From a bacterium (GTDB taxonomy: Bacteria; Electryoneota; RPQS01): 64,000 nucleotides of DNA. The position numbers were made by a program, and so were the translations under genes. The stretch's first letter is position 1, and each line of letters begins with the position of its first letter. Location of the stretch: positions 1,010 through 65,009 of the forward strand of contig JADLDM010000187.1 in NCBI GenBank assembly GCA_020846695.1, given 5' to 3'. A model generated the notes under the pieces. It did not search any database and had not been told where the DNA came from. It worked only from the letters and a program-made list of their open reading frames with translations. Below, one piece after another: positions 3,896 through 44,909 of the stretch.

Positions 3896-3918
3896 TCGCA
3901 ACTTAGCGAAACAACTTC

Positions 3919-17857: not shown

Positions 17858-17867
17858 GGGCGAAGAT

Positions 17868-20882: not shown

Positions 20883-21402
20883 TTCCTCTCCACAATCGTC
20901 TAATGTGACGGTGTCACGTAAGGCTCAACTCGGGATTTTCACAGCTCGGCTCCCGATCCATCCGCCACGCACCGCCGCACAGATTACATTTGCATCTTAA
21001 CGCAATAATATACGCAATTTCGCCTTCGGAAGCACTTGCCACAGGGGGCTGTAGCATTTTGTCGCGACGTCACAAATCATTGGAATCTGACTCTAAATAT
21101 CATATTAGCATGAGGATAATGGAAATTCCTGGGTTGCAAATTGGTTTCAAATCATGTATATTGTTGGTGATGAATTGCGGCCGAATCCACTGTTCGCCAT
21201 TATCCGCAATCAATCGCCAGAATCGAGTTCCGCTGGTGACCATAAAACTGTTCCGCGCGGGATTCTGCTTGATAATCAACAATCACCCGATTTTGTGAGT
21301 CCCGTCACCCGCGCGACTCTCAACCCAATGCCGACAAATAGGTGGCTCGGCAAGCTGAACAGCCCGGACCACCATAAACCACACCTCAAACGGATAGAAG
21401 AA

Positions 21403-21969
21403 ATGATTCGCTACACCGCAAAGACACTCGCCGTCGTCGCCATCGTTTTTGGCTGGCTCCTCGTCACAGGCGCTGCGCTCGCGCAAGACTCCACCAAGAC
21501 CCCCACCTACATCGGCGGATCAAAGTGCAAGATGTGCCACAAAGGAGAGAAGAACGGCAACATGTGGGAAATCTGGGAAGGCTCCACGCACGCAAAGTCC
21601 CTGCAAACCCTGATTGACAAGGGCGAGCAGAACAATGCCGAGTGCCTTGCCTGTCACACCACCGGACACGGAGTCGCAGGAGGATACGGCACCGCCGGAA
21701 TGGAAGCGCCTGAAGCTCTCGGTTCCGTAAGCTGTGAAGCATGTCACGGCCCCGGATCCGAATACAAATCCAAGAAAGTGATGGAAGATCACGCCGCTTC
21801 CGTGGCCGCGGGACTCTGGATTCCTGACGAAAACACCTGTAAGAAGTGCCACAATGAAAAGTCTCCGACTTTCAAGGGCTTCAACTTCGCCGAAGCGTGG
21901 GCGAAGATCAAGCACGAGACTCCCGCTGTCGCCGACAGCGCCGCCGCACCCGCGGGCGGATCGAACTAA
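21403..21969 (+). CDS. Periplasmic tetrahaem cytochrome c
   Basis: MIRYTAKTLAVVAIVFGWLLVTGAALA signal or anchor. Four CxxCH motifs (CKMCH, CLACH, CEACH, CKKCH). Confidence 0.8.
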   Translation: MIRYTAKTLAVVAIVFGWLLVTGAALAQDSTKTPTYIGGSKCKMCHKGEKNGNMWEIWEGSTHAKSLQTLIDKGEQNNAECLACHTTGHGVAGGYGTAGMEAPEALGSVSCEACHGPGSEYKSKKVMEDHAASVAAGLWIPDENTCKKCHNEKSPTFKGFNFAEAWAKIKHETPAVADSAAAPAGGSN

Positions 21970-22123: not shown

Positions 22124-23050
22124 ATGAATCTCAACCGTCGCGACTTCCTCAAATTCGCCGGAGCGACGACTGCTACAGCCGCACTCACTTCGCTCCCGAT
22201 CAAAGCGGAAGCGACCGAACATTTCACGGGACATCCTGATCGCAAAGGAATCCTCGTGGATACCTCGCTCTGCATCGGACACAACTGCCGACGCTGCGAA
22301 TTTGCCTGCGCCAAAGAAAATTACTTGCCGACTCCTGACAAACCTCCGGAAGATGCAAGTGTCTTCGACCAGCGCCGCCGCACTCACCCTGATCAGTTTA
22401 CCGTTATCAATCGCTTTCCCGGCCGTTCCGAGGACATGCCTGTCTATGCAAAAAAACAGTGTATGCACTGCGACGAACCGGCCTGCGCATCCGCCTGCTT
22501 AGTCGGAGCATTCAAGAAAACCCCTGAAGGAGCCGTCACCTACGATGCCTCCGTCTGCATCGGCTGCCGCTACTGCATGGTCGCCTGCCCCTTCGACATT
22601 CCAACTTACGAATACAACAGTGCACTTCACCCTCGCGTCAGGAAGTGCACTTTCTGTTTTGAGACTAAACTGAAAGAAGGGAAAGCTCCGGCCTGCGTCG
22701 AAGCCTGCCCGCGCGAAGTGATGACCTTCGGAAAACGCGAAGACTTGATCAAAGTCGCGCGTCAGAAGATCGCCCGCAACCCCGACAAATACGTTGACCA
22801 CATCTACGGTGAGCATGAAGTCGGCGGGACAAGCTGGATGTATCTCTCGCCCGTGCCGTTCGATTCTATCGGCATGAGAACCGATCTCGGCACGACGCCC
22901 TATCCCGAACTCACGCGCAACTATCTTTCCGCGGCCCCGCTCGTTATGGCCATCTGGCCGAGCTTCTTCCTCACTCTGTATCTGTTCAACAAACGCAAAG
23001 ACCAGATCGCCGCCGAAGAAAACGGCAAGCATAAAGAGGAGAGTGCTTAG
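22124..23050 (+). CDS. Tat-exported 4Fe-4S ferredoxin-type subunit (NrfC/PsrB/HybA/ActB-like) with a C-terminal TM helix
   Basis: Twin-arginine motif NRRDFLKF. Four Cys clusters of the CxxCxxCxxxCP type (CMHCDEPACASAC, CIGCRYCMVACP, CTFC...CVEACP). Confidence 0.85.
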   Translation: MNLNRRDFLKFAGATTATAALTSLPIKAEATEHFTGHPDRKGILVDTSLCIGHNCRRCEFACAKENYLPTPDKPPEDASVFDQRRRTHPDQFTVINRFPGRSEDMPVYAKKQCMHCDEPACASACLVGAFKKTPEGAVTYDASVCIGCRYCMVACPFDIPTYEYNSALHPRVRKCTFCFETKLKEGKAPACVEACPREVMTFGKREDLIKVARQKIARNPDKYVDHIYGEHEVGGTSWMYLSPVPFDSIGMRTDLGTTPYPELTRNYLSAAPLVMAIWPSFFLTLYLFNKRKDQIAAEENGKHKEESA

Positions 23051-24288
23051 TGGCAACCTTCTCTCCTTCTCTTCCGGGAAACGTGAACACCGGATCATGG
23101 CTGCGAGACAAGCTATTCCTCGGTATGACGCCGAAAGCCTATCTGCGCTCGTTGATCACGCCGTGGCACATGGTCGCCGCAGCAATCCTCGCAATCGGCC
23201 TGCCCGTCTTCTTCCAGAGATTTGCCTATGGAATCGGAGCGGTCTCTAATCTCACCGACACAAATCCGTGGGGAATCTGGATCGGCATTGACGTGCTCTG
23301 CGGAGTTGCTTTAGCCGCCGGAGGATTCATCATCGCCTCAATTGTGCATCTCTTCGGCATGAAAGAATATGCGCCGCTTGTCAGACCCGCAATCCTCACC
23401 GGATTTCTCGGCTACGCATTCGTCGTCGTCGGTTTGATGTTCGACTTGGGCCGACCGTGGAGACTTCCTTATCCGATGACGTTTGCATTCGGAACGAGTT
23501 CCGTCATGTTTGAAGTCGGCTGGTGTGTCGCGCTCTACTTGGGATGCCAATTCGTCGAGATGTTCCCGCCGATTTTTGAATGGCTCGGATACAAGAGGCT
23601 CCGCGCATGGGCCATGACCTTAGTGCTCGGCACAACCGTCCTGGCCGTCGTGCTCTCGACCTTGCATCAATCTTCACTCGGCGCACTCTTCTTGATTGCC
23701 CCAAGTAAACTGCATCCGCTCTGGTACAGCATGTATCTGCCGGTCTATTTTCTGATCAGCGCGGTCGCCGGCGGAATCGGCATGATCATCTTTGAATCCA
23801 CACTTTCACATCGCACTTTCAAAACTCAAACCGGACATTTGAGTCACGCGCAGCTTGATCACCTCGCGCTCGGACTTGCGAAGGGCGGCGCGATTGTCCT
23901 CTACCTCTATTTCTGGCTGAAAGTCGTCGGCCTTGCGCATGAACACCAATGGTCGTTACTTCTCTCTGGATGGGGACTATGGTGGCTCGTCGAAGTCATC
24001 GGTTTCATTCTTGCTCCGGCCTTTCTCTTCCTCTTTGCCGTGCGCGGTTTAAGTCCGCTCCTCGCGCGCGTCGCTGCAGTCTGGACCGTACTCGGATTGA
24101 TCCTTAATCGGCTGAATGTTTCGGTTGTCGCGTTAAATTGGAATCAAACCGAGCGCTACATTCCGCACTGGAAAGAAATCACGATTACCATCACAATCAT
24201 CACGATCGGCGTGCTGGTCTTCCAATGGATGGTCAACCGTATGCCAATTCTTTTACAGCATCCAGATTACGCCGGCGAAAGCCACTAA
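23050..24288 (+). CDS. NrfD/PsrC/HybB-family integral membrane quinol-interacting subunit
   Basis: ~10 TM helices. The start overlaps the Fe-S subunit stop. This is the typical partner of NrfC-like proteins. Confidence 0.85.
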   Translation: MATFSPSLPGNVNTGSWLRDKLFLGMTPKAYLRSLITPWHMVAAAILAIGLPVFFQRFAYGIGAVSNLTDTNPWGIWIGIDVLCGVALAAGGFIIASIVHLFGMKEYAPLVRPAILTGFLGYAFVVVGLMFDLGRPWRLPYPMTFAFGTSSVMFEVGWCVALYLGCQFVEMFPPIFEWLGYKRLRAWAMTLVLGTTVLAVVLSTLHQSSLGALFLIAPSKLHPLWYSMYLPVYFLISAVAGGIGMIIFESTLSHRTFKTQTGHLSHAQLDHLALGLAKGGAIVLYLYFWLKVVGLAHEHQWSLLLSGWGLWWLVEVIGFILAPAFLFLFAVRGLSPLLARVAAVWTVLGLILNRLNVSVVALNWNQTERYIPHWKEITITITIITIGVLVFQWMVNRMPILLQHPDYAGESH

Positions 24289-24449
24289 CCGCGTACACAC
24301 CATGCACACACTTCACGAATTCACGCTCGTTACGCAAGCAGGCGAGTATATCACCGGAATCGTCGGTCTGCTTCTGTTTGTTCCCTTCTGGAAAGCTCTC
24401 AACGCGCGACCCAAGCGCAAACACTAATTTTCGAGTCGGGCGACCGACC

Positions 24450-25541
24450 ATGAAACACTTACTCGCTTTCACCGTCCTCTTCGCGCTGCTTCTGATCGGC
24501 GAATCTTCCCACGCGAAGTCCGGTCCTAATAACGGCTGTGCAGAGTGCCACGTCTGCAGCAACCCCACGCTCTCCGATCCCTGCCTGCGCGGATGCCCGC
24601 GCTCCCGCGCAACGGTTGAAGACATCAAGCTCGGTCCCGATCGCATTCTCATCAACGAAATTGAAGTCGAGTATGACGCGGTTCCCTTTGCTCATCGCCT
24701 TCATGCCGAAATGACTGCGATGGACAAGGGCTGCCAGAATTGCCATCACTTTCAGGAAATCGGCGGTATCACCGCGTGCAAGAATTGCCACCCCGAGCAT
24801 ATCGCAGAAGAGAATCTCGAACAGCCCGGCTTGAAGGGCGCCTATCACCGTCAATGTCTCGGCTGTCATCAGGAGTGGAGCCACGACACGTCGTGCGAAA
24901 TCTGCCACCTGAAGAAGGGATCAGAGCTCGCCGAACCGCAAGTTAAGAGCGGACCCGGCAGTAGATTCGCCGGATTGAATGAGCCCGTCAAAAGAGTTTG
25001 GAATTCAACCTACGGCGGCGGCACCGTCGTCACACTTCACCATCGCAATCACACCGAAAAGTACGGAGTGGAATGCGCGGCATGTCATCACGCCGAAGGC
25101 TGTGCGGTTTGCCATGCGAAAAAAGAGCAGACTACTCAGGTGCGTCACAGCGAAGAGGCTCTGCACGCGATCTGCAATAGCTGTCACGCCGAGATGAGTT
25201 GCGATCAGTGCCATTTGAAGAGCGAGGCGCTGGAGTTTTCTCACGCACGCACAGGCTGGCCTTTGAAGACTTACCACGAGCGTCTGACATGCAGACGTTG
25301 TCACGGTGACAATCATCACTTCACCAAACCCTCCACAGATTGTGCAAGCTGCCACAAACCGTGGGATACCACTACCTTCAAGCATGAGCGCACGGGGCTT
25401 GCTCTCAACGAAACACACCTTGAGACTGATTGCGCTGAGTGTCATGTTGGAGCAAATTACACCGTCGCGCCAACGTGCAACAGCTGTCACGATACGGACA
25501 TTACTTTTCCCGCTTCCTTGCCGGGCAACCGGACGAGGTAA
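24450..25541 (+). CDS. Periplasmic multihaem cytochrome c (13 CxxCH)
   Basis: MKHLLAFTVLFALLLIGESSHA signal peptide. 13 CxxCH motifs counted in the translation. Confidence 0.85.
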   Translation: MKHLLAFTVLFALLLIGESSHAKSGPNNGCAECHVCSNPTLSDPCLRGCPRSRATVEDIKLGPDRILINEIEVEYDAVPFAHRLHAEMTAMDKGCQNCHHFQEIGGITACKNCHPEHIAEENLEQPGLKGAYHRQCLGCHQEWSHDTSCEICHLKKGSELAEPQVKSGPGSRFAGLNEPVKRVWNSTYGGGTVVTLHHRNHTEKYGVECAACHHAEGCAVCHAKKEQTTQVRHSEEALHAICNSCHAEMSCDQCHLKSEALEFSHARTGWPLKTYHERLTCRRCHGDNHHFTKPSTDCASCHKPWDTTTFKHERTGLALNETHLETDCAECHVGANYTVAPTCNSCHDTDITFPASLPGNRTR

Positions 25542-25544
25542 CAT

Positions 25545-28004
25545 ATGAGTCGCACCTACATTCTGCTCCTTGCTCTATTGATTCCGCTCGCGGCTTTCGC
25601 GGGCGATGACGCCGCGTGCGTGGATTGTCACTCCGACGGAACGCTTACCCGAACTCTGGACAACGGAACCGTCATTTCGCTTTGCGTCACATCCGATTCG
25701 CTCAAACTATCGCAACATGCCGCGCTCGCCTGCGTGGATTGCCATGCCGATTTGAAGGGCTTCGACGATTTCCCGCACGACGATAAACTCAAAGTGGTCA
25801 ACTGCGCAAGCTGTCACGCCGGAGCCGCGACTGAAGTCGCGGCAGGAGGACACGAGGGCGCGCTGAAATGCGCAGGCTGTCACGGCAAACACGACATTCT
25901 CTCGCCCAAAACTCCCGGCTCGCTTCTCTCGCCCGATCGCGTTGACAAGACGTGTGCAGAATGTCACAACCGGATGCACCCGCCGCAGAGAGGACGCTCC
26001 GCAGCCTACGCAAGTTATGACGTCGGCATTCACGGAAGGCTGACCGGAAAAAGTACGCGCGACTTGCCGAAGTGCACAACGTGCCATCACGCGCACACGG
26101 TCTCAAGCGAGCACAGGATGTCGAATGTGCTGGAAGACGCCTGCCTGAAATGTCATGACAATATCCGAGAGGAATTTAAGCAATCCGTTCACGGCGCATT
26201 GAATGAAGGACGTAATAAGACGCATTGCTTTGATTGTCACGGAGAACACAGAAGCCGCGCGCCCTCCGACACAACGCTGCGTGTGACCAATGAATCCCCC
26301 GCCGAAGCAACGTGCGGAGCCTGCCACCCTGAATCCGTGCAGCGCTACAATCAGAGTTTGCACGCGTGGGCGCTGGAAACCGGCTCTGTCCGCGCGCCTC
26401 GCTGCGAAAGCTGTCACGGCGCGCATAACATCAGACCCGTCAGTGATCCGCAATCTCCTATGCATCGTTCGCGGCAAGTAGAAACCTGCGCGAAGTGCCA
26501 CAGCCAAATCGGAATCACGCTCGATCCCGATGTGCGCCTACCGCGCTCTTTTGAGAACTATCTTGAGAGCACGCACGGCAAGAAACTGAAAGAGGGAAAC
26601 ACCGAAGTTCCAGTCTGCATAGATTGTCACGGGGGGCACGCGATTCGAGGCGGCAACGATCCCAATTCGACCATTGCGCACGTCAACATTGACAAGACCT
26701 GCGGAAAATGCCATGAGAAGGAGCAGGGTCTCTACCGTCAGTCCATTCACTATCGCGCTTTGATCAGCGGAATTGATGACAGCCCGACTTGCACGGGTTG
26801 TCACGGAGAGCACTTGTTGATCTCGCCGAAAGACCCGCTCTCAAAGGTGAGTCACTCGCGAGTCGCCGCCGAAACCTGCGGCAAATGCCACGAGAACCCC
26901 GATGTGATCCGCAAATACGGATTAGCGCCGGACGTGGTTTCAACCTATTCGGATAGCTATCACGGATTGGCAACGCAGGCGAAGCACAAGGACACTCCCT
27001 CCTGCGCAGATTGCCACGAGGCTCACGACGTTCGCACTGCGCATGATTCGCTCTCAACGATTCACAAGAGCAACGTCACCGAAACGTGCGCGAAGTGTCA
27101 CCCCAAAGCCGATGACAAGTTCGCGGCCTCCTATACGCACGTCGCGCTGCAGCCGGTGGAGGGTGGAGCCAATTGGTGGATCGCACGAATCTACTGGGTG
27201 TTATTGGCCGTGATTATCGGCGGAATGGTTGTTCATAATCTCCTGATTCTGAACTTCCACATGGTGAAAGCGCGCGAGCATCAGACAGCCGGCAAGAAAG
27301 TCACGCGCTTTGACAAACACCAATTAGTCCAGCACATGGCGCTGTCGGTCTCCTTCATCATGCTTGCCGTGACGGGCTTCGCGCTGAAATTCCCGAATGC
27401 ATGGTGGGTGAAATTCTCTGCGATGATCGGTTTCAGCGAACCGGTTCGCAGGATCACGCACCGAATCATGGCCGTGATTCTCATCGGCTGCTCCATCTAT
27501 CACGTCGTCTACCTGTTTATGACGCGCCGCGGACAGGAAGAGTTGAAGGCAATGCTGCCCGCAAAATCCGACGTCAGCGAATTCTCTGAGAACATGGCCT
27601 ATCACCTCAACAAGAGGAAAGACCCGCCGAAATTCGATCGCTATGACTATTCGCAGAAGGCCGAGTATTGGGCCTTGATCTGGGGAACCGTTCTAATGAT
27701 CGCTACAGGATTTGTGCTGTGGTTCCCGGCCGAACTTTCTCCGATACTTCCGGCTTGGGCCGTTCCCGTGAGCCAGACGATTCACCTTTATGAAGCATGG
27801 CTTGCAACGCTCGCGATTGTCGTGTGGCACTTCTTCTTCGTGATCTTCCATCCCGAAGAGTATCCCATGAGCTGGACGTGGTTGACCGGAAAGATTTCGC
27901 TCGATCTGGTCAAGCATCGCCACGAACGCTGGTACGACAAGATCGTGAAGGAAGAGGACGCCAAGCCCGATGCTGCAACCAAAACAGAGAGTCCAAAGCA
28001 ATAG
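25545..28004 (+). CDS. 17-haem cytochrome c fused to a C-terminal multi-TM dihaem cytochrome b-like membrane domain (CbcL-like c/b fusion), paralogue 1
   Basis: Signal peptide MSRTYILLLALLIPLAAFA. 17 CxxCH motifs. The C-terminal ~270 aa have ≥4 hydrophobic helices with conserved His (FDKHQLVQHMALSVSF..., ITHRIMAVIL..., IHLYEAWLATLAIVVWHFF). Confidence 0.8.
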   Translation: MSRTYILLLALLIPLAAFAGDDAACVDCHSDGTLTRTLDNGTVISLCVTSDSLKLSQHAALACVDCHADLKGFDDFPHDDKLKVVNCASCHAGAATEVAAGGHEGALKCAGCHGKHDILSPKTPGSLLSPDRVDKTCAECHNRMHPPQRGRSAAYASYDVGIHGRLTGKSTRDLPKCTTCHHAHTVSSEHRMSNVLEDACLKCHDNIREEFKQSVHGALNEGRNKTHCFDCHGEHRSRAPSDTTLRVTNESPAEATCGACHPESVQRYNQSLHAWALETGSVRAPRCESCHGAHNIRPVSDPQSPMHRSRQVETCAKCHSQIGITLDPDVRLPRSFENYLESTHGKKLKEGNTEVPVCIDCHGGHAIRGGNDPNSTIAHVNIDKTCGKCHEKEQGLYRQSIHYRALISGIDDSPTCTGCHGEHLLISPKDPLSKVSHSRVAAETCGKCHENPDVIRKYGLAPDVVSTYSDSYHGLATQAKHKDTPSCADCHEAHDVRTAHDSLSTIHKSNVTETCAKCHPKADDKFAASYTHVALQPVEGGANWWIARIYWVLLAVIIGGMVVHNLLILNFHMVKAREHQTAGKKVTRFDKHQLVQHMALSVSFIMLAVTGFALKFPNAWWVKFSAMIGFSEPVRRITHRIMAVILIGCSIYHVVYLFMTRRGQEELKAMLPAKSDVSEFSENMAYHLNKRKDPPKFDRYDYSQKAEYWALIWGTVLMIATGFVLWFPAELSPILPAWAVPVSQTIHLYEAWLATLAIVVWHFFFVIFHPEEYPMSWTWLTGKISLDLVKHRHERWYDKIVKEEDAKPDAATKTESPKQ

Positions 28005-28013
28005 ATTGAAGTA

Positions 28014-30512
28014 ATGACGCACCGCATTCCCAAACTTGTTGCGTGGCTGCTCACGCTCGCATTTGCCTGCGCAATTCTTCAGGCGCAATCAAACAGCGAC
28101 TGCATGGACTGCCACAGCGACCCCACGCTGTCGGCCGATCGCCTGACCGGCCCGGTTTCGCTCACGGTGACCACCGACAGTTTGAAGGGCAGCGTGCATG
28201 AAGGTCTCGACTGTATTGACTGTCACGCCGATCTCAAAAATGCGGAATTTCCGCACGAGAGACCGCGCAATGTCAATTGCGGTGAGTGTCATGACGCGGA
28301 GATGAAGACTTTCATGGCGGGCTTTTTCAACAAGCTGAACGCCATGGGTTTTCGTGGTGTGCCGGAGTGTTCGGATTGTCACGGCTCGCACAAGATCACG
28401 GCGCATGCGGATTCGCGGAGAGTGTGCGGGATTTGTCACCGCAATGAGTTAGCCGCCTTCGACAAAAGTGTGCACTCACGCACCGGCAAGGCCGCGAAGG
28501 AACAGATGAGCTGCACGTCGTGCCACGACCCGCATTTCAAATCGCGACGTGACAGTATGTCGGTTGCCGAATGGCGCGAGTACAATGTGCACGGCTGTAT
28601 GGAGTGCCACAAGGGCGAATCCAAGAACTACGTCGCAAGTAAGCACTTCGAAAAGTTGAAAGGCGGCGATCTCGACGCTCCGAACTGCGTGTCCTGTCAC
28701 GGTGAACACGGAGTCCTTTCACCTTCCGATCCCGCTTCGCACGCTTCGGTGGAGCGACTTGATGCCCTCTGCTCAACTTGCCACCAGGGATATGAGGAGT
28801 CACTGCACCGCAAGGACAGCGTGGACGCAAGGCTGATGACTTGTGTCGCTTGTCACACGGGACATCAGACGCAGATGGTTCACGCCTCCGGTGGAATATT
28901 TCGCGAGCAGCTCCCCGCGACCTGTAATCGCTGTCATGAAGGCGAGCGCCACACGAAGGAGTTTCTCGCGCACGGCAAGATCATGACGACATCTGAGACG
29001 GGGGACATTGCAAACTGTACGCAGTGTCACGTCTATCACTTCCAGCGCAAGATTGAAGGGCAGGAGCCTAAATCCAATCTGAGAATGCAGTGCGAAAACT
29101 GCCATTCAAAGGAGTATCAGGAGTACATGCGCTCGGAGCACGGAATCGCCTTTGCAAAGGGGCACACCGAAGCTCCGACCTGCGTTACTTGTCATGGGGA
29201 CAAGGACATTCAGAAGGTTAGTGAAGCGATGCGTCCTCGGCACATCATTGACATGTGCAGCAAGTGTCACGGCAATCGCGACTTCGCTCTGAAGTTCCAA
29301 TTGAATCCTGAAGTCGTGCGCTCTTACGAGCGAACGTACCATGGGCAGGCCTACAATCTTGGCTATCAGGGGGATGACTTTGCGACGTGCGTGAACTGTC
29401 ACGGCAATCACGATATTCGTTCACAAGACGATCCGGAATCAAAGGTCAGCCGACAGCATATCATTGAAACGTGCGCGCGTTGTCATAAGGACGCCAACGA
29501 AAATTTCGTGCAGTTTCTTTCGCACTACGATCCGCACGGCGGGCCGGAAGGAGCGACGAAGTCCGAGCGCAACGTGAGCTACGCCGAGAAATTCATGACG
29601 AATCTTCTGTTTTTCGTCTTTGGTTTCTTCGGATTGCACACGGCGCTTTGGCTGATTCGCGGATTTGCGGAAGGTAGACCGAAACGTTCCAAAGAATCGG
29701 AGCGGAAATGGGTTAGGCGGTTTTCTCCGTGGCAGAGAACACTGCATATCGCGCTGGCTTCAAGCTTCCTGTTGCAGGCGATGACGGGATTGCCGTTGAA
29801 GTTCTCACACAGTGAAGCAGCCTATTGGATCACCAATCATCTGATTGATTTGCGGACGATGGCCATCATTCATCGTATCGGCGCGGCGATTATGATCGCG
29901 ACGTTTGTCCTGCATGTGCTGACGCTGATTTCCGCTTGGCTCTTCTTGAAGAAGAGAGGGTTGTTCTGGGGCGACGGCTCAATGGTTCCGCAATTGCGCG
30001 ACGGCAAGGACATCTTCGCGCACTTCCGCTGGTTCCTCTGGCTTGGGCCGAAACCGAAGTTCGGCAAGTTTACGTATTGGGAGAAGTTCGATTACTTCGC
30101 GGTGTTCTGGGGCGTCTTGATCATCGGATCGAGCGGCTTCATTCTCTGGTATCCGGAGTTTTTCACACAGCTTCTGCCGGGTTGGGTGATTAATCTCGCG
30201 CACATAGTTCATAGTGAGGAAGCTCTGCTTGCAACGGCATTCATCTTCTCGATCCACTTTTTCAACGGACATCTTCGCCCGAGCAAATTCCCGTTCGACG
30301 ACGTGATCTTCACGGGACGCGAATCCACCGAAGAGCTTGAACGCGAGCGGCCGCTCGAAATTGAGCAGCTTATTAAGGAAGGCAAACTTGATGCGCACGT
30401 CGTGCCGCCAATGAAGACGTGGCATAAGTTATTTCTCAAGACGTGGGGATGGTCGGCGTTTCTTGCAGGACTTGTTGTGCTCATCTTCATCATCTATGCG
30501 ATGTTCGGATAG
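28014..30512 (+). CDS. 17-haem cytochrome c fused to a C-terminal multi-TM dihaem cytochrome b-like membrane domain (CbcL-like c/b fusion), paralogue 2
   Basis: Signal peptide MTHRIPKLVAWLLTLAFACAILQA. 17 CxxCH motifs. The C-terminal TM domain has His-containing helices (WQRTLHIALASSFLLQAMTGLPLKF...). It has the same architecture as the upstream gene. Confidence 0.8.
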   Translation: MTHRIPKLVAWLLTLAFACAILQAQSNSDCMDCHSDPTLSADRLTGPVSLTVTTDSLKGSVHEGLDCIDCHADLKNAEFPHERPRNVNCGECHDAEMKTFMAGFFNKLNAMGFRGVPECSDCHGSHKITAHADSRRVCGICHRNELAAFDKSVHSRTGKAAKEQMSCTSCHDPHFKSRRDSMSVAEWREYNVHGCMECHKGESKNYVASKHFEKLKGGDLDAPNCVSCHGEHGVLSPSDPASHASVERLDALCSTCHQGYEESLHRKDSVDARLMTCVACHTGHQTQMVHASGGIFREQLPATCNRCHEGERHTKEFLAHGKIMTTSETGDIANCTQCHVYHFQRKIEGQEPKSNLRMQCENCHSKEYQEYMRSEHGIAFAKGHTEAPTCVTCHGDKDIQKVSEAMRPRHIIDMCSKCHGNRDFALKFQLNPEVVRSYERTYHGQAYNLGYQGDDFATCVNCHGNHDIRSQDDPESKVSRQHIIETCARCHKDANENFVQFLSHYDPHGGPEGATKSERNVSYAEKFMTNLLFFVFGFFGLHTALWLIRGFAEGRPKRSKESERKWVRRFSPWQRTLHIALASSFLLQAMTGLPLKFSHSEAAYWITNHLIDLRTMAIIHRIGAAIMIATFVLHVLTLISAWLFLKKRGLFWGDGSMVPQLRDGKDIFAHFRWFLWLGPKPKFGKFTYWEKFDYFAVFWGVLIIGSSGFILWYPEFFTQLLPGWVINLAHIVHSEEALLATAFIFSIHFFNGHLRPSKFPFDDVIFTGRESTEELERERPLEIEQLIKEGKLDAHVVPPMKTWHKLFLKTWGWSAFLAGLVVLIFIIYAMFG

Positions 30513-30532
30513 ATAAGCTTGCGCGTTTTTTG

Positions 30533-30568
30533 AGAGCCGTTCGCTAAATGCGGGCGGCTCTTTTGTTT
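30533..30568 (+). terminator. Rho-independent terminator after the cytochrome c/b operon
   Basis: AGAGCCGttcgctaaatgcgggCGGCTCTtttgttt. A 7-bp GC-rich stem plus a T-tract, 20 nt after the stop. Confidence 0.55.
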
Positions 30569-30889: not shown

Positions 30890-31894
30890 TTACGGGAAGG
30901 TCGCGTTCACAACACCGTTCACGTGAAGTGAAGGATCGAGGAAGCGAATTTCATTTGCGTCATTGTAGTTGGAATTCGGATCTACGTGCGGATGACAGAA
31001 GTGGCAGCGATTCTCCGTCGGATGAAATGGAGCAGTCGGCGGAACCTGATGACAGCCACGACATTGCGTGATCGTCTGACCAGTTGCCCACTCCACTGCG
31101 ACAAGCGGAGCACCCTGATGCAAATCCGAGTGACAATAGGTTGCGCAGGTTCCGTTGCCGAGTTCACTCGGATCTGGAGTGTAGCTGTTCGGGAATCCAT
31201 TCGCATTGGAGATGTGCGCGTCATTGAAGGCAACGTCTGCGGGCAATGCATCAATGTGACTCAAGTCATCTACGTTGCTGTGGCACTCCGTGCAAGCATA
31301 GCGCGAGTGAGCGCCGTGTGCGCCGGGAGGAATAGAACCTATCGGCTCAATCGGCGGCATGCCGTGACATGTGATACAGGCGGCAGGGCCGCCGGGTTCG
31401 GTGTGGCAAGTCAAGCACGAAGAACCGCTGCGACCACCAGCGAAATCTACACCGTGACAGGATTGACAGCTTGCGAGATTCTGCCATTCGAAGTTCAAGA
31501 TATGAACAGGGTGGTTTGCGGTGTAGTTGCTTACATGCGGATAGGAATGACAGTTTGAACAAGCAACGTCGCTGACATATTCCTGCGGATCGGGCGGAAG
31601 CACATCCGGAAAGACGCCGCCCAGAGACGTGGATACGTTGTGACATTCCGCGCAACTCTGACCTTTGCTTCCCAACGCCGCAGTGCCGTGCCATTCTTGG
31701 CTATAGGGATCCATCCAATTGGAAGGATGCACTTGATAGCTGTCGGTAACACGATCTTCACTGCAAGACATGAAGGAGAAAAGCGCGAGCACAAATACTG
31801 TGAACAAGATGAAAATGCGCTTGGGAGTTTGACCCCCCCTTGCCCCCCCGGAAGACCGGTGGGGAATATGAAGTATGGATTTATTTCGCATCAT
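30890..31894 (-). CDS. Multihaem cytochrome c (8 CxxCH + 1 CxxxCH), probable lipoprotein or secreted protein
   Basis: Start chosen at MMRNKSILH... A hydrophobic signal (KRIFILFTVFVLALFSFMSC) follows a Gly-rich leader encoded by G7-CAA-G7. The C-terminus is terminal in the operon. Confidence 0.7.
   Translation of the reverse strand: MMRNKSILHIPHRSSGGARGGQTPKRIFILFTVFVLALFSFMSCSEDRVTDSYQVHPSNWMDPYSQEWHGTAALGSKGQSCAECHNVSTSLGGVFPDVLPPDPQEYVSDVACSNCHSYPHVSNYTANHPVHILNFEWQNLASCQSCHGVDFAGGRSGSSCLTCHTEPGGPAACITCHGMPPIEPIGSIPPGAHGAHSRYACTECHSNVDDLSHIDALPADVAFNDAHISNANGFPNSYTPDPSELGNGTCATYCHSDLHQGAPLVAVEWATGQTITQCRGCHQVPPTAPFHPTENRCHFCHPHVDPNSNYNDANEIRFLDPSLHVNGVVNATFP
31833..31849. repeat. Paired homopolymer tract C7-TTG-C7 (coding strand G7-CAA-G7) in the 5' coding leader of cytochrome gene 30890-31894
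   Basis: Read directly. It encodes SGGARGG upstream of the signal peptide h-region. Confidence 0.6.
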
Positions 31895-32885
31895 GGCACC
31901 TCGCGCAAACCGGTTCCTGATTCGGCACGTCGTGACAGGACATGCAGCTTTCCAAATCAAATTCGGCACTCATGCCGTGCGTTCCGCCGTCGGAAGTTAC
32001 AAAACCCGCGCGGAAGTGATCGGCGGGAAGAATTCCCATGTCGCGATGGCACTCGGTGCAGAAACTTCTCTGTTCGTGACACACTCCGCAACGCATGTCG
32101 GAGAGATGCGCGTCATGTCCATGCGTCGAGAGATATTCGTGCGGGTGCGGACTGATGACCGCATCGCCGTTGTGACAGCTTGCGCAATCGCGCTCTGAAC
32201 CCGATTGATGGCACATCGCGCAATTTGCCGATGTGATATTGGAGGCGATGCCATGCTGCTGAATCCACATCACATTGTGATCGGCGGGTTTCAGTTTGTC
32301 TTCGGGCATGTGACAGACATTGCACTCGCTCGTGACCACGCGTTCGGTGTGACAGTTCACACACGTGGCCATGTCCGGCAGCGGAGCCTTGGTCAAAGCG
32401 CTGCGTGCATCATCTAAACCTACGTGACAGATCGCGCAATCCAATCCAACCTTTTTCACGTGGCGTTCGTGATTAAACTTGGGAAGATACTCCGGAGCGC
32501 GAATCGTTGCGAATCCTTCCGTCTCGCCTTTCAAGCGAATGCCCTTGCCGGACAAGTCATTCTGCTCGTGACAGGCTGCGCAAACCGACCATTCGGGAAG
32601 CAGATTGTCATTGCCTGAAATGCTTGCATCAACGACGTGACACTCGGCGCATTTCATTCCGACTTCTTCGGTGTGGTAGCCGTGACTGAATGCGGGTTTG
32701 CTTGCACTCGAACGAGTCAGCGGGTATTTGTCATCGGCGAGTGATGGACGCGCAATGAGAAGGAGCGTTAGAGCAAGAATACAGAGGGTCGGCTGCAAGC
32801 AGCCAACACCGGAAGAAGGGGGGCAGCCGACACCGGAAGTTATGGAGCCGACACTGCAAGGGGGGGCGAACAATATCGTTTTCAT
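31881..32885 (-). CDS. Multihaem cytochrome c (11 CxxCH)
   Basis: The ATG at 32885 overlaps the porin stop (ATGA). A leader with SGVGC duplications and poly-Pro precedes the signal LCILALTLLLIARPSLA. 11 CxxCH motifs. Confidence 0.75.
   Translation of the reverse strand: MKTILFAPPCSVGSITSGVGCPPSSGVGCLQPTLCILALTLLLIARPSLADDKYPLTRSSASKPAFSHGYHTEEVGMKCAECHVVDASISGNDNLLPEWSVCAACHEQNDLSGKGIRLKGETEGFATIRAPEYLPKFNHERHVKKVGLDCAICHVGLDDARSALTKAPLPDMATCVNCHTERVVTSECNVCHMPEDKLKPADHNVMWIQQHGIASNITSANCAMCHQSGSERDCASCHNGDAVISPHPHEYLSTHGHDAHLSDMRCGVCHEQRSFCTECHRDMGILPADHFRAGFVTSDGGTHGMSAEFDLESCMSCHDVPNQEPVCARCHDAK
32814..32867. repeat. G6 and G7 tracts plus short direct repeats (gcagccRacaccggaag) in the 5' coding leader of cytochrome gene 31881-32885
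   Basis: Read directly. They encode the APP... and ...CPPS... segments and an SGVGC duplication. Confidence 0.55.
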
Positions 32886-34120
32886 TGCTGCCCTCCTTTC
32901 ACGCTCGAAAATCTTCGCGAAAGAGAAAACAGCGCGCGAATGTCCTCGTCGCTGCCTCTATCCTTGATGTGTTCAATGCGCGCCCCAAGCGCACCCATCG
33001 GACACGGCGAGAACGTCAAACCCGCGAAGATCATCTGCGATTCGGAATTGGGGCGCACTTCAGAATTTGAGCCTCTTGAATAGTCGAAGCCTACGCGACC
33101 TGTGAACTTGCCTTTTTCTTTGTGCAGTTCGCCGTAGAATCCGTCCATGTCGCCTTTGTCGGCGGCAAGCCAGTGCACATAGCCCATTTCAACACAAGAG
33201 CGTCCGATTCCCGCGCGAGTCTTGTAGAGCATGTCTTCTTCCGTGAAGAGCAGATAGCCCATGCCCGTCGCGTAGAACTCATTCCAGAAGGTCCACTGCG
33301 CGCCGCCTCGTGCGGAATTTGTTTTTGAGTCCTCGAGGAAATTGGCGAAGAAGGAATCCTCGAAAATTCTCGGCGTCTGCGTGCGCACGTCGGCGGAAAC
33401 CAGCAGATCGGGCCGCGTTTGCCAATAGACCGAAAGTTGTCCCGTCTCAATTGCGCCCTGCTCAAGATTCATGTGCAGGCGCGCGCGAATTGTGACGTCG
33501 CGATTGCGATCGCAGAAAAAGTCAAGACCCGCCCCATTGTAGAGCAGGTCTCCGTCTTTTCCGACATAATAATAGGAGAGCATCAGATTGCGCCCGTAGA
33601 GATTCGTGCGCAAATTGACACCCGCTGCGATTCCCTGATCGGGAACCGATTCATCGAGACTGATCGAGTTGGACAGGCGGGAGCCGCCATAAGCAGCGAA
33701 ACTTGTCTTAGGGCTGAACTGATAGCGGCCCCAGACGCCTGCCACATTTCCACGACCAACTCCCTCCGACAGCCACTGCTGACCAAGCCTGAGAGAGAGT
33801 TTCGATTTCCGGGGTGTGTAGAGGATCAGGCAGCGCTGTATGCGCAGGCTCGTATTCTCACGAGTTCCATTCTGAAAATCCGTAAAACCCCGGAAGGTGC
33901 TTTCAAATCTCCATGCGTCGCCGGCAAATTGGCCGACATTCAAATTGAGCAGCGGCACCACCTGGACGTGATCCACAGAATCATCGCGCAAATAAGACCA
34001 CAACCCAAAACGCCCGGAAACGGAGACAGCTTGCGCTGTCTCCGTTCCGGCTAAAACCAGTCCCATACATGCCGACACGAGGCCGACAAGTAGCATTCTC
34101 CTGCCCAAGATAATCGGCAT
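32882..34120 (-). CDS. Outer-membrane porin-like beta-barrel protein (candidate cytochrome-sheathing porin of a porin-cytochrome conduit)
   Basis: Signal peptide MLLVGLVSACMGLVLAGTETAQA. The sequence has alternating amphipathic beta-strand character rich in Y/F/W/G. No Cys or haem motifs. It is sandwiched between multihaem cytochrome genes. Confidence 0.55.
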   Translation of the reverse strand: MPIILGRRMLLVGLVSACMGLVLAGTETAQAVSVSGRFGLWSYLRDDSVDHVQVVPLLNLNVGQFAGDAWRFESTFRGFTDFQNGTRENTSLRIQRCLILYTPRKSKLSLRLGQQWLSEGVGRGNVAGVWGRYQFSPKTSFAAYGGSRLSNSISLDESVPDQGIAAGVNLRTNLYGRNLMLSYYYVGKDGDLLYNGAGLDFFCDRNRDVTIRARLHMNLEQGAIETGQLSVYWQTRPDLLVSADVRTQTPRIFEDSFFANFLEDSKTNSARGGAQWTFWNEFYATGMGYLLFTEEDMLYKTRAGIGRSCVEMGYVHWLAADKGDMDGFYGELHKEKGKFTGRVGFDYSRGSNSEVRPNSESQMIFAGLTFSPCPMGALGARIEHIKDRGSDEDIRALFSLSRRFSSVKGGQQ

Positions 34121-34148
34121 GAGGGAAACTGCTCCTTTCTGCTGAAAC

Positions 34149-35852
34149 TTACCGGACGGTCATCCTCTTCTGTTCGTTCAGGAGCGGCTGACCCGGCGTC
34201 AAATAATCAATCGCATTCGTCAACAACGAATAAGCGTATTCGTAGTTGTGGACGCCCATCGAGCCTTCATTGGTGATGAAGTACCAGGCATAGGCGGCTT
34301 CGCGCTGTTCACGCGTTGTGCTCGTGGTGTCGAAATTCGGCTCTTCGCCATTGTTCGGCAGCATGGCGAACAGTTGATCCATCAAGCCCTGAATTTCCGT
34401 GCGGCGACCGTGATAGTCGAATCCTTCAGGAGTCGCGTGGCACTGATTGCAAGCCTCGACGCGCGGCTCAAAGGCGTGACCATGATAGTCGTGGCCGGGA
34501 GTGTCGCCCGGAATCGTGTGCACGTGACAGGTCACGCACATATCCGCAAGATTGCCCTCACCAATCACTACATCCGGCTGGTGAGCCGATTCACGATTGT
34601 AAGTATAGCCTGCAATTTCGTAGGAACCGCGACCCAGCATCATGTCTGCCTGGCAGCTTGCGTGTGGTCCGGCGTGCGCGCTACCGTTGTTGATCTGGCC
34701 AACGATGTTTGAGTAGGTGCGGCGAGCATGGTGACACTGTGCGCAGAGCTGTCCCTTGCCGAAGCTCAGAACGCCCAATTCTTCATCGGGAACCCACAGC
34801 GTATCGGCGATGTCCGGTCCAGGATAGACGATGGGGAATGCGCCCAGACCACGCAGGTAGCCCGGATTGTCCTCGCTGAACTCATGCACGTCGTGGCAGG
34901 TTGCACAGGAAACTTGCCAGCCTTCCGCCGGCACTGCTACGTCCGCCCATTCCGGGTCCCATTTCTTAATGAAGGCTTCGGAGATGTGACAGAAGTTGCA
35001 AGACGAGCGATTCCACTCCGTATTGAACTCCTCGATTCCGCCGGCGCGCTCGATCGCGGTGCCGTGCGCGGATTCTTCGTACTCTTCAAATTGCGAGTGG
35101 CAGCGATTACAGGTCTCACCCGTGATAACCAGTTCGACATCCGGCTCATGCGACGAGAAATCCGGGCCCATCGGGCCGTGACAGGCTTCGCAAGTCACAT
35201 TGCGAAGCATGGCATTAGGATAGTCATCATATCCGCCATTGTCAACCCCCGGTGTGGTCACCGAGCCGTCGTAGGCGACGATATCGTCCCAACCGGTGGT
35301 GTGGCACTGCAAGCAGTAGGGATTGTTTTCCGCGCTTGAAGCGACTAATGCATCATAAGCGCCTGCATGGTGGGTGCCGCGCCAGCTTTCCACCTTGGCC
35401 TGATGGCAGTGCGCGCAACGATTCTCACTGTCGCCCAAGTAGCTCGGATAGACCGACGGAACATAGGTGTTCACGCCGACGCGAACCGTGCCAGTCGCCG
35501 ATCCGTCTTCGTCGGTGACGGTGACGGTGATTTCATAGAGACCGATGCCCGAGGGCGGCGTGTAGGTGGTTACTGCCGCGTTGGTGCTGGACAGTGTGCC
35601 CGAAGCTGCCGACCAGTGATAGGTCATGGCGTCGCCATTGGGGTCATAGGCGCTGACAAAGAGCACCGTGCTTTCGCCTGTGCCGACCGAATCAGGAGCC
35701 GCAACAACCGCCGTGATAATCGGCGCCATGTCCGGATTCAAGCCCGACGGTCCCGCAGGCCCTTGGTCGCCTTCGCAACCCCAGAATGCAACGCTGACCG
35801 TAAGCAAGCCTACAATCAGAAATGCAACCGGATGAAGTCTTCTACGTGTCAT
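34149..35852 (-). CDS. Lipoprotein multihaem cytochrome c (9 CxxCH) with an N-terminal PKD/Ig-like domain
   Basis: MTRRRLHPVAFLIVGLLTVSVAFWGC carries a lipobox. A PKD-like segment (VLFVSAYDPNGDAMTYHWSAASG) follows. 9 CxxCH motifs. Confidence 0.8.
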   Translation of the reverse strand: MTRRRLHPVAFLIVGLLTVSVAFWGCEGDQGPAGPSGLNPDMAPIITAVVAAPDSVGTGESTVLFVSAYDPNGDAMTYHWSAASGTLSSTNAAVTTYTPPSGIGLYEITVTVTDEDGSATGTVRVGVNTYVPSVYPSYLGDSENRCAHCHQAKVESWRGTHHAGAYDALVASSAENNPYCLQCHTTGWDDIVAYDGSVTTPGVDNGGYDDYPNAMLRNVTCEACHGPMGPDFSSHEPDVELVITGETCNRCHSQFEEYEESAHGTAIERAGGIEEFNTEWNRSSCNFCHISEAFIKKWDPEWADVAVPAEGWQVSCATCHDVHEFSEDNPGYLRGLGAFPIVYPGPDIADTLWVPDEELGVLSFGKGQLCAQCHHARRTYSNIVGQINNGSAHAGPHASCQADMMLGRGSYEIAGYTYNRESAHQPDVVIGEGNLADMCVTCHVHTIPGDTPGHDYHGHAFEPRVEACNQCHATPEGFDYHGRRTEIQGLMDQLFAMLPNNGEEPNFDTTSTTREQREAAYAWYFITNEGSMGVHNYEYAYSLLTNAIDYLTPGQPLLNEQKRMTVR

Positions 35853-35914
35853 GATTCTTCCCTTTCTTTTCTCTCCCAAGAAACAATTCTACCGCATGTT
35901 ATGTGAATGAAATA

Positions 35915-44908: not shown

Positions 44909-44909
44909 A

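What the first reader, a model, noticed from the sequence alone, without database searches (positions are those of the whole stretch)
25545..30512. Tandem paralogous 17-haem cytochrome c proteins fused to cytochrome b membrane anchors (c/b fusions)
Both ORFs (819 and 832 aa) have an N-terminal signal peptide and 17 CxxCH motifs each, counted in the translation. Both have a C-terminal ~270-aa domain with 4-5 hydrophobic helices carrying conserved His residues. This is the arrangement of dihaem b-type cytochromes of the FdnI/HydC/cyt b561 type. A c-type multihaem domain fused to a b-type membrane domain is the architecture of Geobacter CbcL, which from memory has 9 c-haems. Here the c-domain is almost twice as large and the gene is duplicated in tandem. 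The two copies are clearly diverged, so this is not an assembly duplicate. This could be a quinol:periplasmic-cytochrome oxidoreductase tuned to two potential windows.
Basis: partly seen in the sequence, partly recalled or inferred. Interest (0 to 1): 0.8.

Follow-up and report, generated by a model that had tools for sequence, protein, structure and literature searches.

The report
Paired CbcL-type 17-haem bc-cytochromes
Two neighbouring genes each encode a membrane protein that joins a 17-haem electron wire to a two-haem membrane anchor, relatives of Geobacter's CbcL quinol oxidase, so the architecture is known, but the conserved pairing of two sister forms seems not to have been described.

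Summary
ORF A (25545-28004, 819 aa) and ORF B (28014-30512, 832 aa) are intact. Each has a signal-like N-terminus, exactly 17 CxxCH motifs and a C-terminal helical membrane domain.

So these are CbcL-type "bc-cytochromes", probably menaquinol:periplasmic-cytochrome oxidoreductases. They sit inside a 17.6-kb cytochrome island.

The size is not novel. The published CbcL/MtrH/MtoC family spans 3-23 haems in 15 phyla, including a 19-haem protein in Caldithrix abyssi.

- **Two lineages, not a local duplication.** A and B are 30% identical. B has 6 TM helices and groups with a 9-haem CbcL orthologue; A belongs to a 5-TM sister lineage.
- **Conserved pairing.** 17-haem B-type genes have an A-type neighbour in 15 of 18 loci from several phyla. 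A-type genes often stand alone.
- **Modular wire and extra histidines.** The c-domain is four tetrahaem modules plus one haem. Both lineages carry two extra invariant membrane histidines.

Function and electron-flow direction are inferred, not shown.

The parts
25545..28004 (+). ORF A, 819 aa: A-type bc-cytochrome with 17 c-haem motifs, a linker TM helix and a 4-helix FdnI-like b domain. It has 5 TM helices and no C-terminal TM.
   Evidence: An identical protein is in NCBI as 'cytochrome b/b6 domain-containing protein [bacterium]'.
25602..27167 (+). A periplasmic c domain (res 20-541). The 17 CxxCH lie at 25, 63, 87, 109, 137, 177, 200, 228, 257, 287, 315, 358, 386, 416, 445, 487 and 515. It is built from ~125-130 aa tetrahaem repeats.
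   Evidence: motifs. (res 250-380 vs 380-510: local score 215, z 28; res 130-250 vs both: z ~16). (19 conserved non-motif His and no Met, consistent with all bis-His haems).
27168..27962 (+). A membrane domain (res 542-806). Model TM helices are 542-575, 591-615, 632-659, 702-726 and 739-768. Invariant His: H564 (27234-27236), H597 (27333-27335), H639 (27459-27461), H653 (27501-27503), H747 (27783-27785), H762 (27828-27830).
28014..30512 (+). ORF B, 832 aa: B-type (CbcL-lineage) bc-cytochrome with 17 c-haem motifs and 6 TM helices, including a C-terminal one.
28086..29564 (+). B periplasmic c domain (res 25-517). The 17 CxxCH lie at 30, 67, 89, 119, 138, 167, 195, 225, 253, 277, 304, 335, 360, 390, 415, 459 and 487, each aligned to the corresponding motif of A.
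   Evidence: Only 15 non-motif His are conserved at 90% or more, plus Met288 (94%).
29565..30506 (+). B membrane domain (res 518-831). Model helices are 518-553, 572-596, 613-643, 688-712, 723-753 and 802-831. Invariant His: H542 (29637-29639), H578 (29745-29747), H620 (29871-29873), H634 (29913-29915), H733 (30210-30212), H748 (30255-30257). It carries the lineage signature YWEKFDYFAVFWG.
30532..30562 (+). Terminator-like hairpin (13-bp stem followed by a T-rich tail) that closes the six-gene operon.
   Evidence: No comparable hairpin lies between A and B, which are 9 nt apart.
21154..21969 (+). First gene of the operon: a tetrahaem c554-like cytochrome (4 CxxCH).
22124..23050 (+). Tat-exported 4Fe-4S protein, HmcB/NrfC-like.
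   Evidence: NCBIfam HmcB, 435.5 bits against a cut-off of 420; TAT signal.
23050..24288 (+). NrfD/HmcC-like integral membrane quinone-interacting subunit.
   Evidence: Pfam NrfD. NCBIfam HmcC 492.9 bits, below its cut-off of 550.
24447..25541 (+). 13-haem c3/HmcA-C-terminus-like periplasmic cytochrome. The likely true start is MKHLLAF; the listed ORF starts at 24138.
   Evidence: The orthologue in L001 is 367 aa.
30890..35879 (-). Context: a convergent cluster with 8(+1)-haem and 11-haem cytochromes, a 412-aa secreted protein with no haem motif (candidate porin), and a 9-haem PKD-domain cytochrome with a lipobox-like FWGC. The layout resembles a porin-cytochrome conduit.
   Evidence: The whole cluster is syntenic in L001 and L019. 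The porin assignment is not tested (one search found no PDB sequence match).
36686..38779 (-). Context: a 697-aa NapC/NirT-type membrane cytochrome with 17 CxxCH plus one CX4CH, a further candidate quinol oxidase.

Best explanation
**What they are.** A and B are two co-transcribed inner-membrane 'bc-cytochromes' of the CbcL kind. Each is exported by a Sec-type signal. Each carries a periplasmic chain of 17 covalently bound c-haems, built from four tandem tetrahaem modules plus one haem. Each then crosses the membrane once on a linker helix that bears an invariant His, and ends in a four-helix FdnI/HydC-fold domain. That domain has the four His that bind two b-haems in E. coli FdnI. B belongs to the lineage that contains a 9-haem CbcL orthologue (6 TM helices, YWEKFDY signature). 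A belongs to a sister lineage with 5 TM helices.

**Inferred mechanism (from FdnI and from Geobacter CbcL genetics; not shown here).** Menaquinol is oxidised at a site next to the cytoplasmic-side b-haem. Electrons cross the membrane through the two b-haems and run along the 17-haem chain to the periplasmic and outer-membrane cytochromes encoded next door. The protons are released to the cytoplasm. The step therefore conserves no energy, and it may be helped by the membrane potential, which would suit low-potential acceptors. The reverse direction (electron uptake) is equally possible.

**Why they probably act together.** The 17-haem B type is almost always encoded beside an A type, and here the two share one operon. 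They most likely act at the same time in one pathway and are not alternatives switched by transcription.
For: **Shown**
- Intact ORFs with 17 CxxCH each.
- A matches PF01292 above the cut-off and FdnI by sequence. The B-family profile matches FdnI at E 2e-8.
- The His aligned to FdnI H18, H57, H155 and H169 are invariant in 240 homologues of both lineages.
- Tetrahaem repeats in the c domain.
- B is much closer than A to a 9-haem, 6-TM CbcL orthologue (L086) whose first motif spacings (23, 25, 23) equal those of GSU0274. B gives 60% identity over TM3-TM4 and chain E 6e-69; A gives 33% and 1e-34. On lineage HMMs the orthologue scores 302 bits (B type) against 123 bits (A type).
- A C-terminal TM helix is present in 119 of 120 B-family proteins and absent in 120 of 120 A-family proteins.
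- Pairing: 15 of 18 loci with a 17-haem B type have an A type within 5 kb on the same strand, and 11 are directly adjacent, in either order. They come from MAGs labelled Calditrichota, Fidelibacterota/Marinimicrobia, Myxococcales and others.
- Operon: 9-nt gap, terminator only after B.
- Context: about 96 CxxCH in 11 genes, including a porin-cytochrome-like cluster.

**From the literature**
- CbcL is a menaquinol oxidase needed below about -0.1 V, lowers growth yield, and is inferred to release protons to the cytoplasm.
Against: - There is no experimental datum for these proteins or their host, which is an uncultured MAG. Haem content, quinone use and electron direction are all inferred.
- The sequence of G. 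sulfurreducens GSU0274 itself could not be retrieved. The link to CbcL rests on a frameshifted metagenomic orthologue (L086), on motif and TM positions published for GSU0274, and on machine-read (OCR) fragments of a supplementary alignment.
- B's Pfam b-domain hit is below the gathering score.
- The pairing is asymmetric. None of 4 loci seeded on 11-haem A types has a B type within 8 kb, only about 20 of 60 loci with 19-haem B-like genes have an A type nearby, and Geobacter CbcL works alone. Neither type needs the other in general.
- MtoC/MtrH relatives occur in Fe(II) oxidisers, so quinone reduction is as plausible as quinol oxidation.
Confidence: 0.68

Rival explanations
1. One reading: A and B are functionally redundant quinol oxidases. 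Each is tuned to its own redox-potential window and used alternately, like ImcH, CbcL and CbcBA in Geobacter.
For: Geobacter uses three inner-membrane cytochromes for three potential windows, and CbcL is gated by potential after translation. The two lineages differ systematically right after the cytoplasmic-side haem ligand, where FdnI binds quinone: A has HFFFVIFHPEEYP and B has HFFNxHLRP, each with its own invariant residues. The distal-ligand inventories also differ: A has 19 conserved His, B has 15 His plus Met288.
Against: The genes share one operon with a 9-nt gap and no internal terminator, so there is no independent transcriptional control. The heterotypic pairing is conserved across phyla with tight or overlapping junctions, which is more typical of partners than of alternatives. 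No potentials can be computed from sequence.
Confidence: 0.25
2. A and B form one heteromeric membrane complex and are obligate partners. B's extra C-terminal helix and the linker helices would pack the two b domains together.
For: Near-universal adjacency for 17-haem B types (15 of 18 loci). Junctions look translationally coupled: overlaps in L005, L007 and L019, and 3-20 nt gaps in L008, L014, L016 and the window. The A-B association is more constant than that with any other neighbour; HmcB/C occur in 7 of 18 loci and the porin candidate in 3 of 18.
Against: A types occur alone (0 of 4 seeded loci have a B type). CbcL, which is of the B lineage, functions alone in Geobacter. In L004, L012 and L013 the pair is separated by 2-5 kb of other genes. 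No multimer prediction could be run.
Confidence: 0.2
3. The pair works in reverse, as quinone reductases that take electrons from outside the cell (Fe(II), an electrode or a partner cell) into the quinone pool, like MtoC in Fe(II) oxidisers.
For: [quoted passage not shown] FdnI itself reduces quinone.
Against: Nothing in the window points to lithotrophy. The flanking genes are for polysaccharide use, amino-acid transport and acetyl-CoA metabolism, which suits a heterotroph that disposes of electrons.
Confidence: 0.15
4. They are gamma subunits of a formate dehydrogenase or hydrogenase, as the JGI names of many homologues say.
For: The b domain matches TIGR01583 and PF01292. JGI names homologues 'formate dehydrogenase gamma subunit'.
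Against: All NCBIfam FDH and hydrogenase cytochrome b models score far below their cut-offs (60 against 116 bits). No molybdopterin or NiFe catalytic subunit is present in the window or in the six relatives' loci whose called genes and Pfam hits were read. The domain is fused to 17 c-haems.
Confidence: 0.01

Closest known systems
CbcL (GSU0274) of Geobacter sulfurreducens and the CbcL/MtrH/MtoC family (Zacharoff et al. 2016; Zhong & Shi 2018, PMC6295460)
   Same: The order is signal peptide, periplasmic multihaem c domain, linker TM helix, then an FdnI/HydC-like dihaem b domain. The last five haem motifs and the first TM helix of GSU0274 coincide with those of A when shifted by +258 residues. 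B shares the 6-TM layout, the C-terminal helix, the YWEKFDY/GLPLKF signatures and 60% identity over TM3-TM4 with a 9-haem CbcL orthologue. The His on the linker helix is also present in CbcL.
   Different: There are 17 haems instead of 9, that is, four tetrahaem modules instead of two; this is within the family's published range of 3-23. A lacks the sixth TM helix and scores as a separate lineage. Both A and B have a second invariant His in TM2 at +14 from the first, whereas the CbcL orthologue has one at about +18. The genes are paired, whereas Desulfuromonadia typically carry one copy per genome.
FdnI, cytochrome b556 subunit of E. coli formate dehydrogenase-N (PDB 1KQF/1KQG chain C)
   Different: There are no FdnG/FdnH partners. 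An extra N-terminal helix covalently joins the domain to a c-type wire, roughly where FdnH's anchor helix would be (inference). There are two extra invariant His, and identity is only 16-21%.
CbcBA of G. sulfurreducens (Joshi et al. 2021)
   Same: A periplasmic multihaem cytochrome whose C-terminal TM helix carries a His and sits against a 4-TM dihaem b protein. This is the split version of what A is as a single chain. Split A-like forms occur in L071 and L089.
   Different: CbcB is reported to share no sequence homology with CbcL. CbcA has 7 haems. No CbcB sequence was available for a direct test.
Hmc / Cbc4 (CbcSTU)-type NrfCD modules
   Same: The three genes at the start of the operon (tetrahaem c, Tat FeS protein, NrfD-like membrane protein) have the composition described for Cbc4. 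They hit the HmcB and HmcC models.
   Different: These are neighbours, not part of A or B. No HmcE/HmcF equivalents are present. The module accompanies the A-B pair in only 7 of 18 loci.

Membership tests
CbcL/MtrH/MtoC bc-cytochrome family | N-terminal export signal followed by a periplasmic domain with multiple CX2CH motifs | tested here: met
   17 CxxCH in each protein, with a hydrophobic N-terminus. The signal peptide was judged by eye only.
CbcL/MtrH/MtoC bc-cytochrome family | C-terminal HydC/FdnI-like b-type cytochrome domain on the same polypeptide | tested here: met
CbcL/MtrH/MtoC bc-cytochrome family | Conserved His ligands for two b-haems in the TM helices | tested here: met
   A H597, H639, H747, H762 and B H578, H620, H733, H748 are invariant in 240 sequences and align to FdnI H18, H57, H155 and H169 (the last with a one-column shift).
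CbcL/MtrH/MtoC bc-cytochrome family | Six TM helices, including one at the extreme C-terminus (typical of the family, GSU0274 included) | tested here: met
   This result is for B only: 6 helices in the model, and a C-terminal TM in 119 of 120 B-family proteins. A is tested in the next row.
CbcL/MtrH/MtoC bc-cytochrome family | Six TM helices, tested for protein A | tested here: not met
   A has 5 TM helices. None of 120 A-family proteins has a C-terminal TM. The '5-TM' entries in Zhong & Shi are CbcL orthologues that keep the C-terminal helix. A is therefore best filed as a sister lineage.
CbcL/MtrH/MtoC bc-cytochrome family | Detectable sequence homology to bona fide CbcL over both domains | tested here: inconclusive
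   GSU0274 itself could not be retrieved. Against a frameshifted 9-haem orthologue (L086), B gives E 6e-69 (60% identity over TM3-TM4) and A gives E 1e-34 (33%). OCR fragments of G. sulfurreducens CbcL score 93 bits on the B-type HMM and 22 bits on the A-type HMM.
CbcL/MtrH/MtoC bc-cytochrome family | Role as quinol oxidase or quinone reductase in extracellular electron transfer | not testable with these tools
   Only context is available: an 11-gene island with about 96 haem motifs and a porin-cytochrome-like cluster.
Formate dehydrogenase / [NiFe] hydrogenase cytochrome b subunit (FdnI, HyaC, HydC) | Stand-alone ~200-aa subunit encoded with molybdopterin or NiFe catalytic and FeS subunits; scores above the equivalog cut-off | tested here: not met
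   TIGR01583 60.3 against 115.85 bits; TIGR02125 39.7 against 121.5; NF007558 37.9 against 339. No catalytic subunit lies nearby. The domain is fused to a c domain.
CbcBA-type split bc complex | Separate c-type subunit with a C-terminal TM His plus a 4-TM PhsC-like b subunit; sigma-54/BccR regulation | not tested
   No CbcA or CbcB sequence was available. The architecture of A is analogous as a fusion. No BccR-like regulator was seen next to the operon.
Hmc complex (HmcABCDEF) | 16-haem HmcA with HmcB, HmcC, HmcD, the b-type HmcE and the cytoplasmic HmcF | tested here: not met
   HmcB-like is above its cut-off and HmcC-like is below it. A and B score only 41 bits or nothing against HmcA (cut-off 400). 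There are no HmcE/HmcF genes.

The most novel reading that the evidence does not exclude
A and B, an A-type and a CbcL-type bc-cytochrome, assemble into one heteromeric inner-membrane complex with 34 c-haems. The two extra invariant histidines would bind a third b-haem per subunit or act as a redox-switch ligand. One lies on the linker helix (A H564, B H542) and one in TM2 (A H653, B H634); both sit in the cytoplasmic half of the membrane. The 17-haem wires would be long enough, on the order of 15 nm if extended, to reach the outer-membrane conduit without soluble periplasmic shuttles.
Probability: 0.15. Interest if true: 0.65.

Novelty: new variant of a known kind. Interest (0 to 1): 0.4.

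Why it matters
Inner-membrane quinol oxidases are the least understood step of extracellular electron transfer. No CbcL-type protein has a solved structure. Outside Geobacter and Shewanella, the step is usually inferred from weak annotation.

This locus shows that in Calditrichota-like and several other little-studied phyla the CbcL architecture comes as a conserved pair of two sister forms. The CbcL-lineage member is often annotated only as 'cytochrome c3 family' or 'hypothetical' in NCBI, because its b domain falls below the Pfam cut-off.

Simple sequence signatures could improve the prediction of electroactive metabolism in metagenomes:
- 5 versus 6 TM helices.
- AEYWAL versus YWEKFDY.
- Six invariant membrane His.
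- Haem counts of 4n+1 or 4n+3.

The two extra invariant His give a concrete target for testing the published idea that CbcL switches b-haem ligation with redox potential.

Tried and rejected
- **Retrieving GSU0274.** The last protein search, with an OCR fragment of the CbcL alignment from the supplement of PMC9129911, returned only three short fragments. One of them led to the frameshifted orthologue L086, which was used instead. The OCR text is visibly corrupted (the same strings repeat in all rows) and is treated as weak evidence only.
- **Apparent 9-haem B-family hits.** P0235, P0236 and P0238 looked like CbcL-sized members but are N-terminally truncated 17-haem proteins without a signal peptide.
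- **Were Zhong & Shi's '5-TM' homologues the A type?** No. They are CbcL orthologues with one helix missed by the predictor.
- **Structure-library search against AlphaFold DB.** The afdb50 library was not available.
- **Finding the window's own record.** Looking up protein A in the contig index found nothing on record.
- **Third-b-haem idea.** It could not be tested, because model coordinates are not exposed and no haem-aware or multimer prediction was possible.
- **Literature searches for the pairing or for these proteins in Calditrichota, Marinimicrobia, Zixibacteria or Ca. Electryonea.** Nothing specific was found. The library is limited to open-access papers, so absence of a report is weak evidence.
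- **Formate dehydrogenase gamma subunit (the JGI name).** Rejected; see the rival explanations.
- **Assembly duplicate or missed stop.** Rejected.
Full report
**1. The observation**

ORF A (25545-28004, +, 819 aa) and ORF B (28014-30512, +, 832 aa) are uninterrupted. Each contains exactly 17 CxxCH motifs and no variant motifs. Almost every cysteine belongs to a motif. Both start with a hydrophobic signal-like segment and end in a helical hydrophobic region.

A and B are 30% identical over their whole length (E 4e-102). All 17 motifs align one to one.

**2. The membrane domains**

A residues 595-770 match Pfam PF01292 (prokaryotic cytochrome b561 / Ni_hydr_CYTB) at 61.9 bits against a cut-off of 30.1. 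They also match E. coli FdnI (PDB 1KQF chain C) by plain sequence search at E 1.5e-7.

B reaches only 17.5 bits on Pfam. A profile of its family, however, hits FdnI at E 2e-8.

I aligned the membrane domains of 240 homologues. The histidines aligned to the FdnI haem ligands H18, H57, H155 and H169 are invariant: A H597, H639, H747, H762 and B H578, H620, H733, H748.

**3. The c domains**

Segments 250-380 and 380-510 of A align with a local score of 215, which is 28 sd above shuffles. Segment 130-250 aligns to both at about 16 sd. B shows the same pattern more weakly. The wire is thus four tandem tetrahaem modules plus one haem.

Haem counts among relatives fit 4n+1 or 4n+3. Homologues of A have 11, 15, 17 or 19. 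B-type proteins have 9 (CbcL), 13, 17 or 21, or 11 and 19.

A's orthologues conserve 19 non-motif His and no Met, which suits all-bis-His coordination as measured for CbcL. B's family conserves only 15 His plus Met288.

The B-family profile's best solved relative for the c domain is the decahaem MtrA (E 2.7e-16).

**4. Comparison with what is known**

CbcL of G. sulfurreducens has nine CX2CH and six TM helices with a HydC/FdnI-like dihaem b domain. Zhong & Shi (PMC6295460) catalogued 138 CbcL/MtrH/MtoC homologues in 15 phyla. They are 416-1034 aa long with 3 to 23 CX2CH, and they include a 920-aa, 19-haem protein in Caldithrix abyssi. A 17-haem c/b fusion is therefore inside the known range. 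When shifted by +258 residues, the last five haem motifs and the first TM helix of GSU0274 coincide with those of A.

I could not obtain GSU0274 itself. A fragment search led to locus L086, which holds a frameshifted gene with nine CxxCH and six TM helices. Its first motif spacings of 23, 25 and 23 are the same as in GSU0274.

| Test against L086 | B | A |
|---|---|---|
| Identity over TM3-TM4 | 60% | 33% |
| Chain E-value | 6e-69 | 1e-34 |
| Score on lineage HMM | 302 bits (B type) | 123 bits (A type) |

Machine-read fragments of the real CbcL alignment agree, scoring 93 bits on the B-type HMM and 22 bits on the A-type HMM. That text is corrupted and counts for little.

Every one of 120 A-family proteins lacks a C-terminal TM helix, and 119 of 120 B-family proteins have one. 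So B is a large member of the CbcL lineage, and A is a 5-TM sister lineage that the 2018 survey does not visibly contain. No curated NCBIfam model reaches its cut-off for either protein. NCBI names A-type proteins 'cytochrome b/b6 domain-containing' and B-type proteins mostly 'cytochrome c3 family' or 'hypothetical'. JGI calls both 'formate dehydrogenase gamma subunit', which the context contradicts.

**5. The pairing**

The closest relatives (L001, L019) have the same gene order throughout.

More distant loci show the same heterotypic pair in other settings:
- L003 has B followed by an 11-haem A type as an isolated two-gene unit.
- L005-L007 have a 19-haem A type followed by B, overlapping.
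- L008, L014 and L016 have B followed by an 11-haem A type, 3-20 nt apart.
- In L004, L012 and L013 the two are 2-5 kb apart.

Of 18 loci with a 17-haem B type, 15 have an A type within 5 kb on the same strand. HmcB/C-like genes accompany the pair in 7 of 18 loci and the porin candidate in 3 of 18.

The relation is asymmetric. About 20 of 60 loci with the 19-haem B-like clade have an A type nearby. None of four loci seeded on 11-haem A types has a B type within 8 kb. Split forms of both lineages exist.

**6. Context in the window**

A and B are the last two genes of a six-gene operon. In order it encodes a tetrahaem cytochrome, a Tat FeS protein (HmcB-like), an NrfD/HmcC-like membrane protein, a 13-haem cytochrome, A and B. 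Gaps between the genes are small, and one strong terminator-like hairpin follows B.

Convergent with it lies a cluster that looks like a porin-cytochrome conduit, followed by a NapC/NirT-type 17-haem membrane cytochrome. Together these 11 genes carry about 96 CxxCH motifs.

The host is an uncultured bacterium. Named relatives are Calditrichota/Calditrichaeota MAGs, and the window also encodes a T9SS-sorted protein.

**7. Mechanism**

By homology with FdnI, each protein should hold two b-haems stacked across the membrane, with the quinone site next to the cytoplasmic-side haem. By analogy with CbcL, menaquinol oxidation would send electrons outward through the b-haems and along the c-haem wire. 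Protons would be released to the cytoplasm, so the step is non-conserving and possibly driven by the membrane potential. These steps are inferred; the direction could be the reverse, as proposed for MtoC.

Co-transcription and conserved adjacency favour simultaneous use of the two proteins. The two-window idea remains possible through post-translational gating.

Both lineages have two further invariant His in the cytoplasmic half of the membrane. One is on the linker helix (A H564, B H542) and one is in TM2 at +14 from the first TM2 His (A H653, B H634). Joshi et al. already noted a fifth candidate ligand in CbcL and proposed alternative b-haem ligation. A sixth invariant His makes a third haem or a switch more concrete, but I could not test it.

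**8. Verdict**

The size is not novel. The conserved pairing of a CbcL-lineage protein with a 5-TM sister lineage, and the modular 4n+1 wire, are modest additions that I did not find described. I rate it a new variant of a known kind, of moderate interest.

Noticed in passing
window 30890-35879 (- strand): A four-gene cluster: an 8(+1 CX4CH)-haem cytochrome, an 11-haem cytochrome, a 412-aa secreted protein with no haem motif and no Pfam or PDB match, and a 9-haem cytochrome with a PKD/Big domain and a lipobox-like FWGC. The layout is that of a porin-cytochrome outer-membrane conduit. It is syntenic in L001 and L019.
   Followed up: partly
window 36686-38779 (- strand): A 697-aa membrane cytochrome with a NapC/NirT-like N-terminal region, 17 CxxCH and one CX4CH. 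It is another candidate quinol oxidase (ImcH- or CymA-like role) in the same island. Similar genes sit between B and A in L004, L012 and L013.
   Followed up: partly
window 28014-30512 (protein B) and alignment A1: The B family conserves only 15 non-motif His for 17 haems, plus Met288 (94%) and an invariant Lys176. One or two haems may not be bis-His, unlike in A and in CbcL.
   Followed up: partly
loci L006-L085 and protein sets P0001-P0240: Haem counts fall into series differing by four: 9, 13, 17, 21 and 11, 15, 19, 23. This is as expected if whole tetrahaem modules are gained or lost.
   Followed up: partly
L071 8728-10738; L089 3147-6395; L062, L078, L085 near 10000-12900; L009 8541-9635; L044 105-866: Split versions of both lineages: a c-type protein ending in the linker helix, followed by a separate b-only protein. 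Some may be assembly frameshifts. L089 has such a split set directly upstream of a fused A type, which resembles the CbcA/CbcB arrangement.
   Followed up: no
L019 (CAZHAK010000002.1): This contig carries an 81%-identical copy of B and the whole syntenic island, but it is labelled 'uncultured Alphaproteobacteria bacterium'. All other close relatives are Calditrichota-like or unclassified, so this is probably a binning or labelling error.
   Followed up: no
L086 about 2640-4510: A CbcL orthologue (9 haems, 6 TM) broken by several frameshifts in a 686-kb metagenomic contig, probably from indel errors of the assembly. It lies next to the atp operon and is followed by a NapC/NirT-like cytochrome.
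   Followed up: partly
L009 9772-13551: The ORF containing the B-type protein is 1259 aa long, about 400 aa more than usual, and an A-type b-only ORF lies just upstream. It could be an extended fusion or a start-codon artefact of my ORF caller.
   Followed up: no
window 16511-20882 (- strand) and 44868-46568 (+): Upstream of the island are an alpha-amylase-family gene and a 1004-aa GH57/CBM protein. Further downstream is a beta-helix protein with a T9SS C-terminal sorting domain, which fits an FCB-group heterotroph.
   Followed up: no
homologue tables: Public annotation is inconsistent. JGI names both lineages 'formate dehydrogenase gamma subunit' or 'cytochrome b subunit of formate dehydrogenase'. 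NCBI names A types 'cytochrome b/b6 domain-containing protein' and B types 'cytochrome c3 family protein' or 'hypothetical protein', so the b domain of the CbcL-lineage proteins is often missed.
   Followed up: yes
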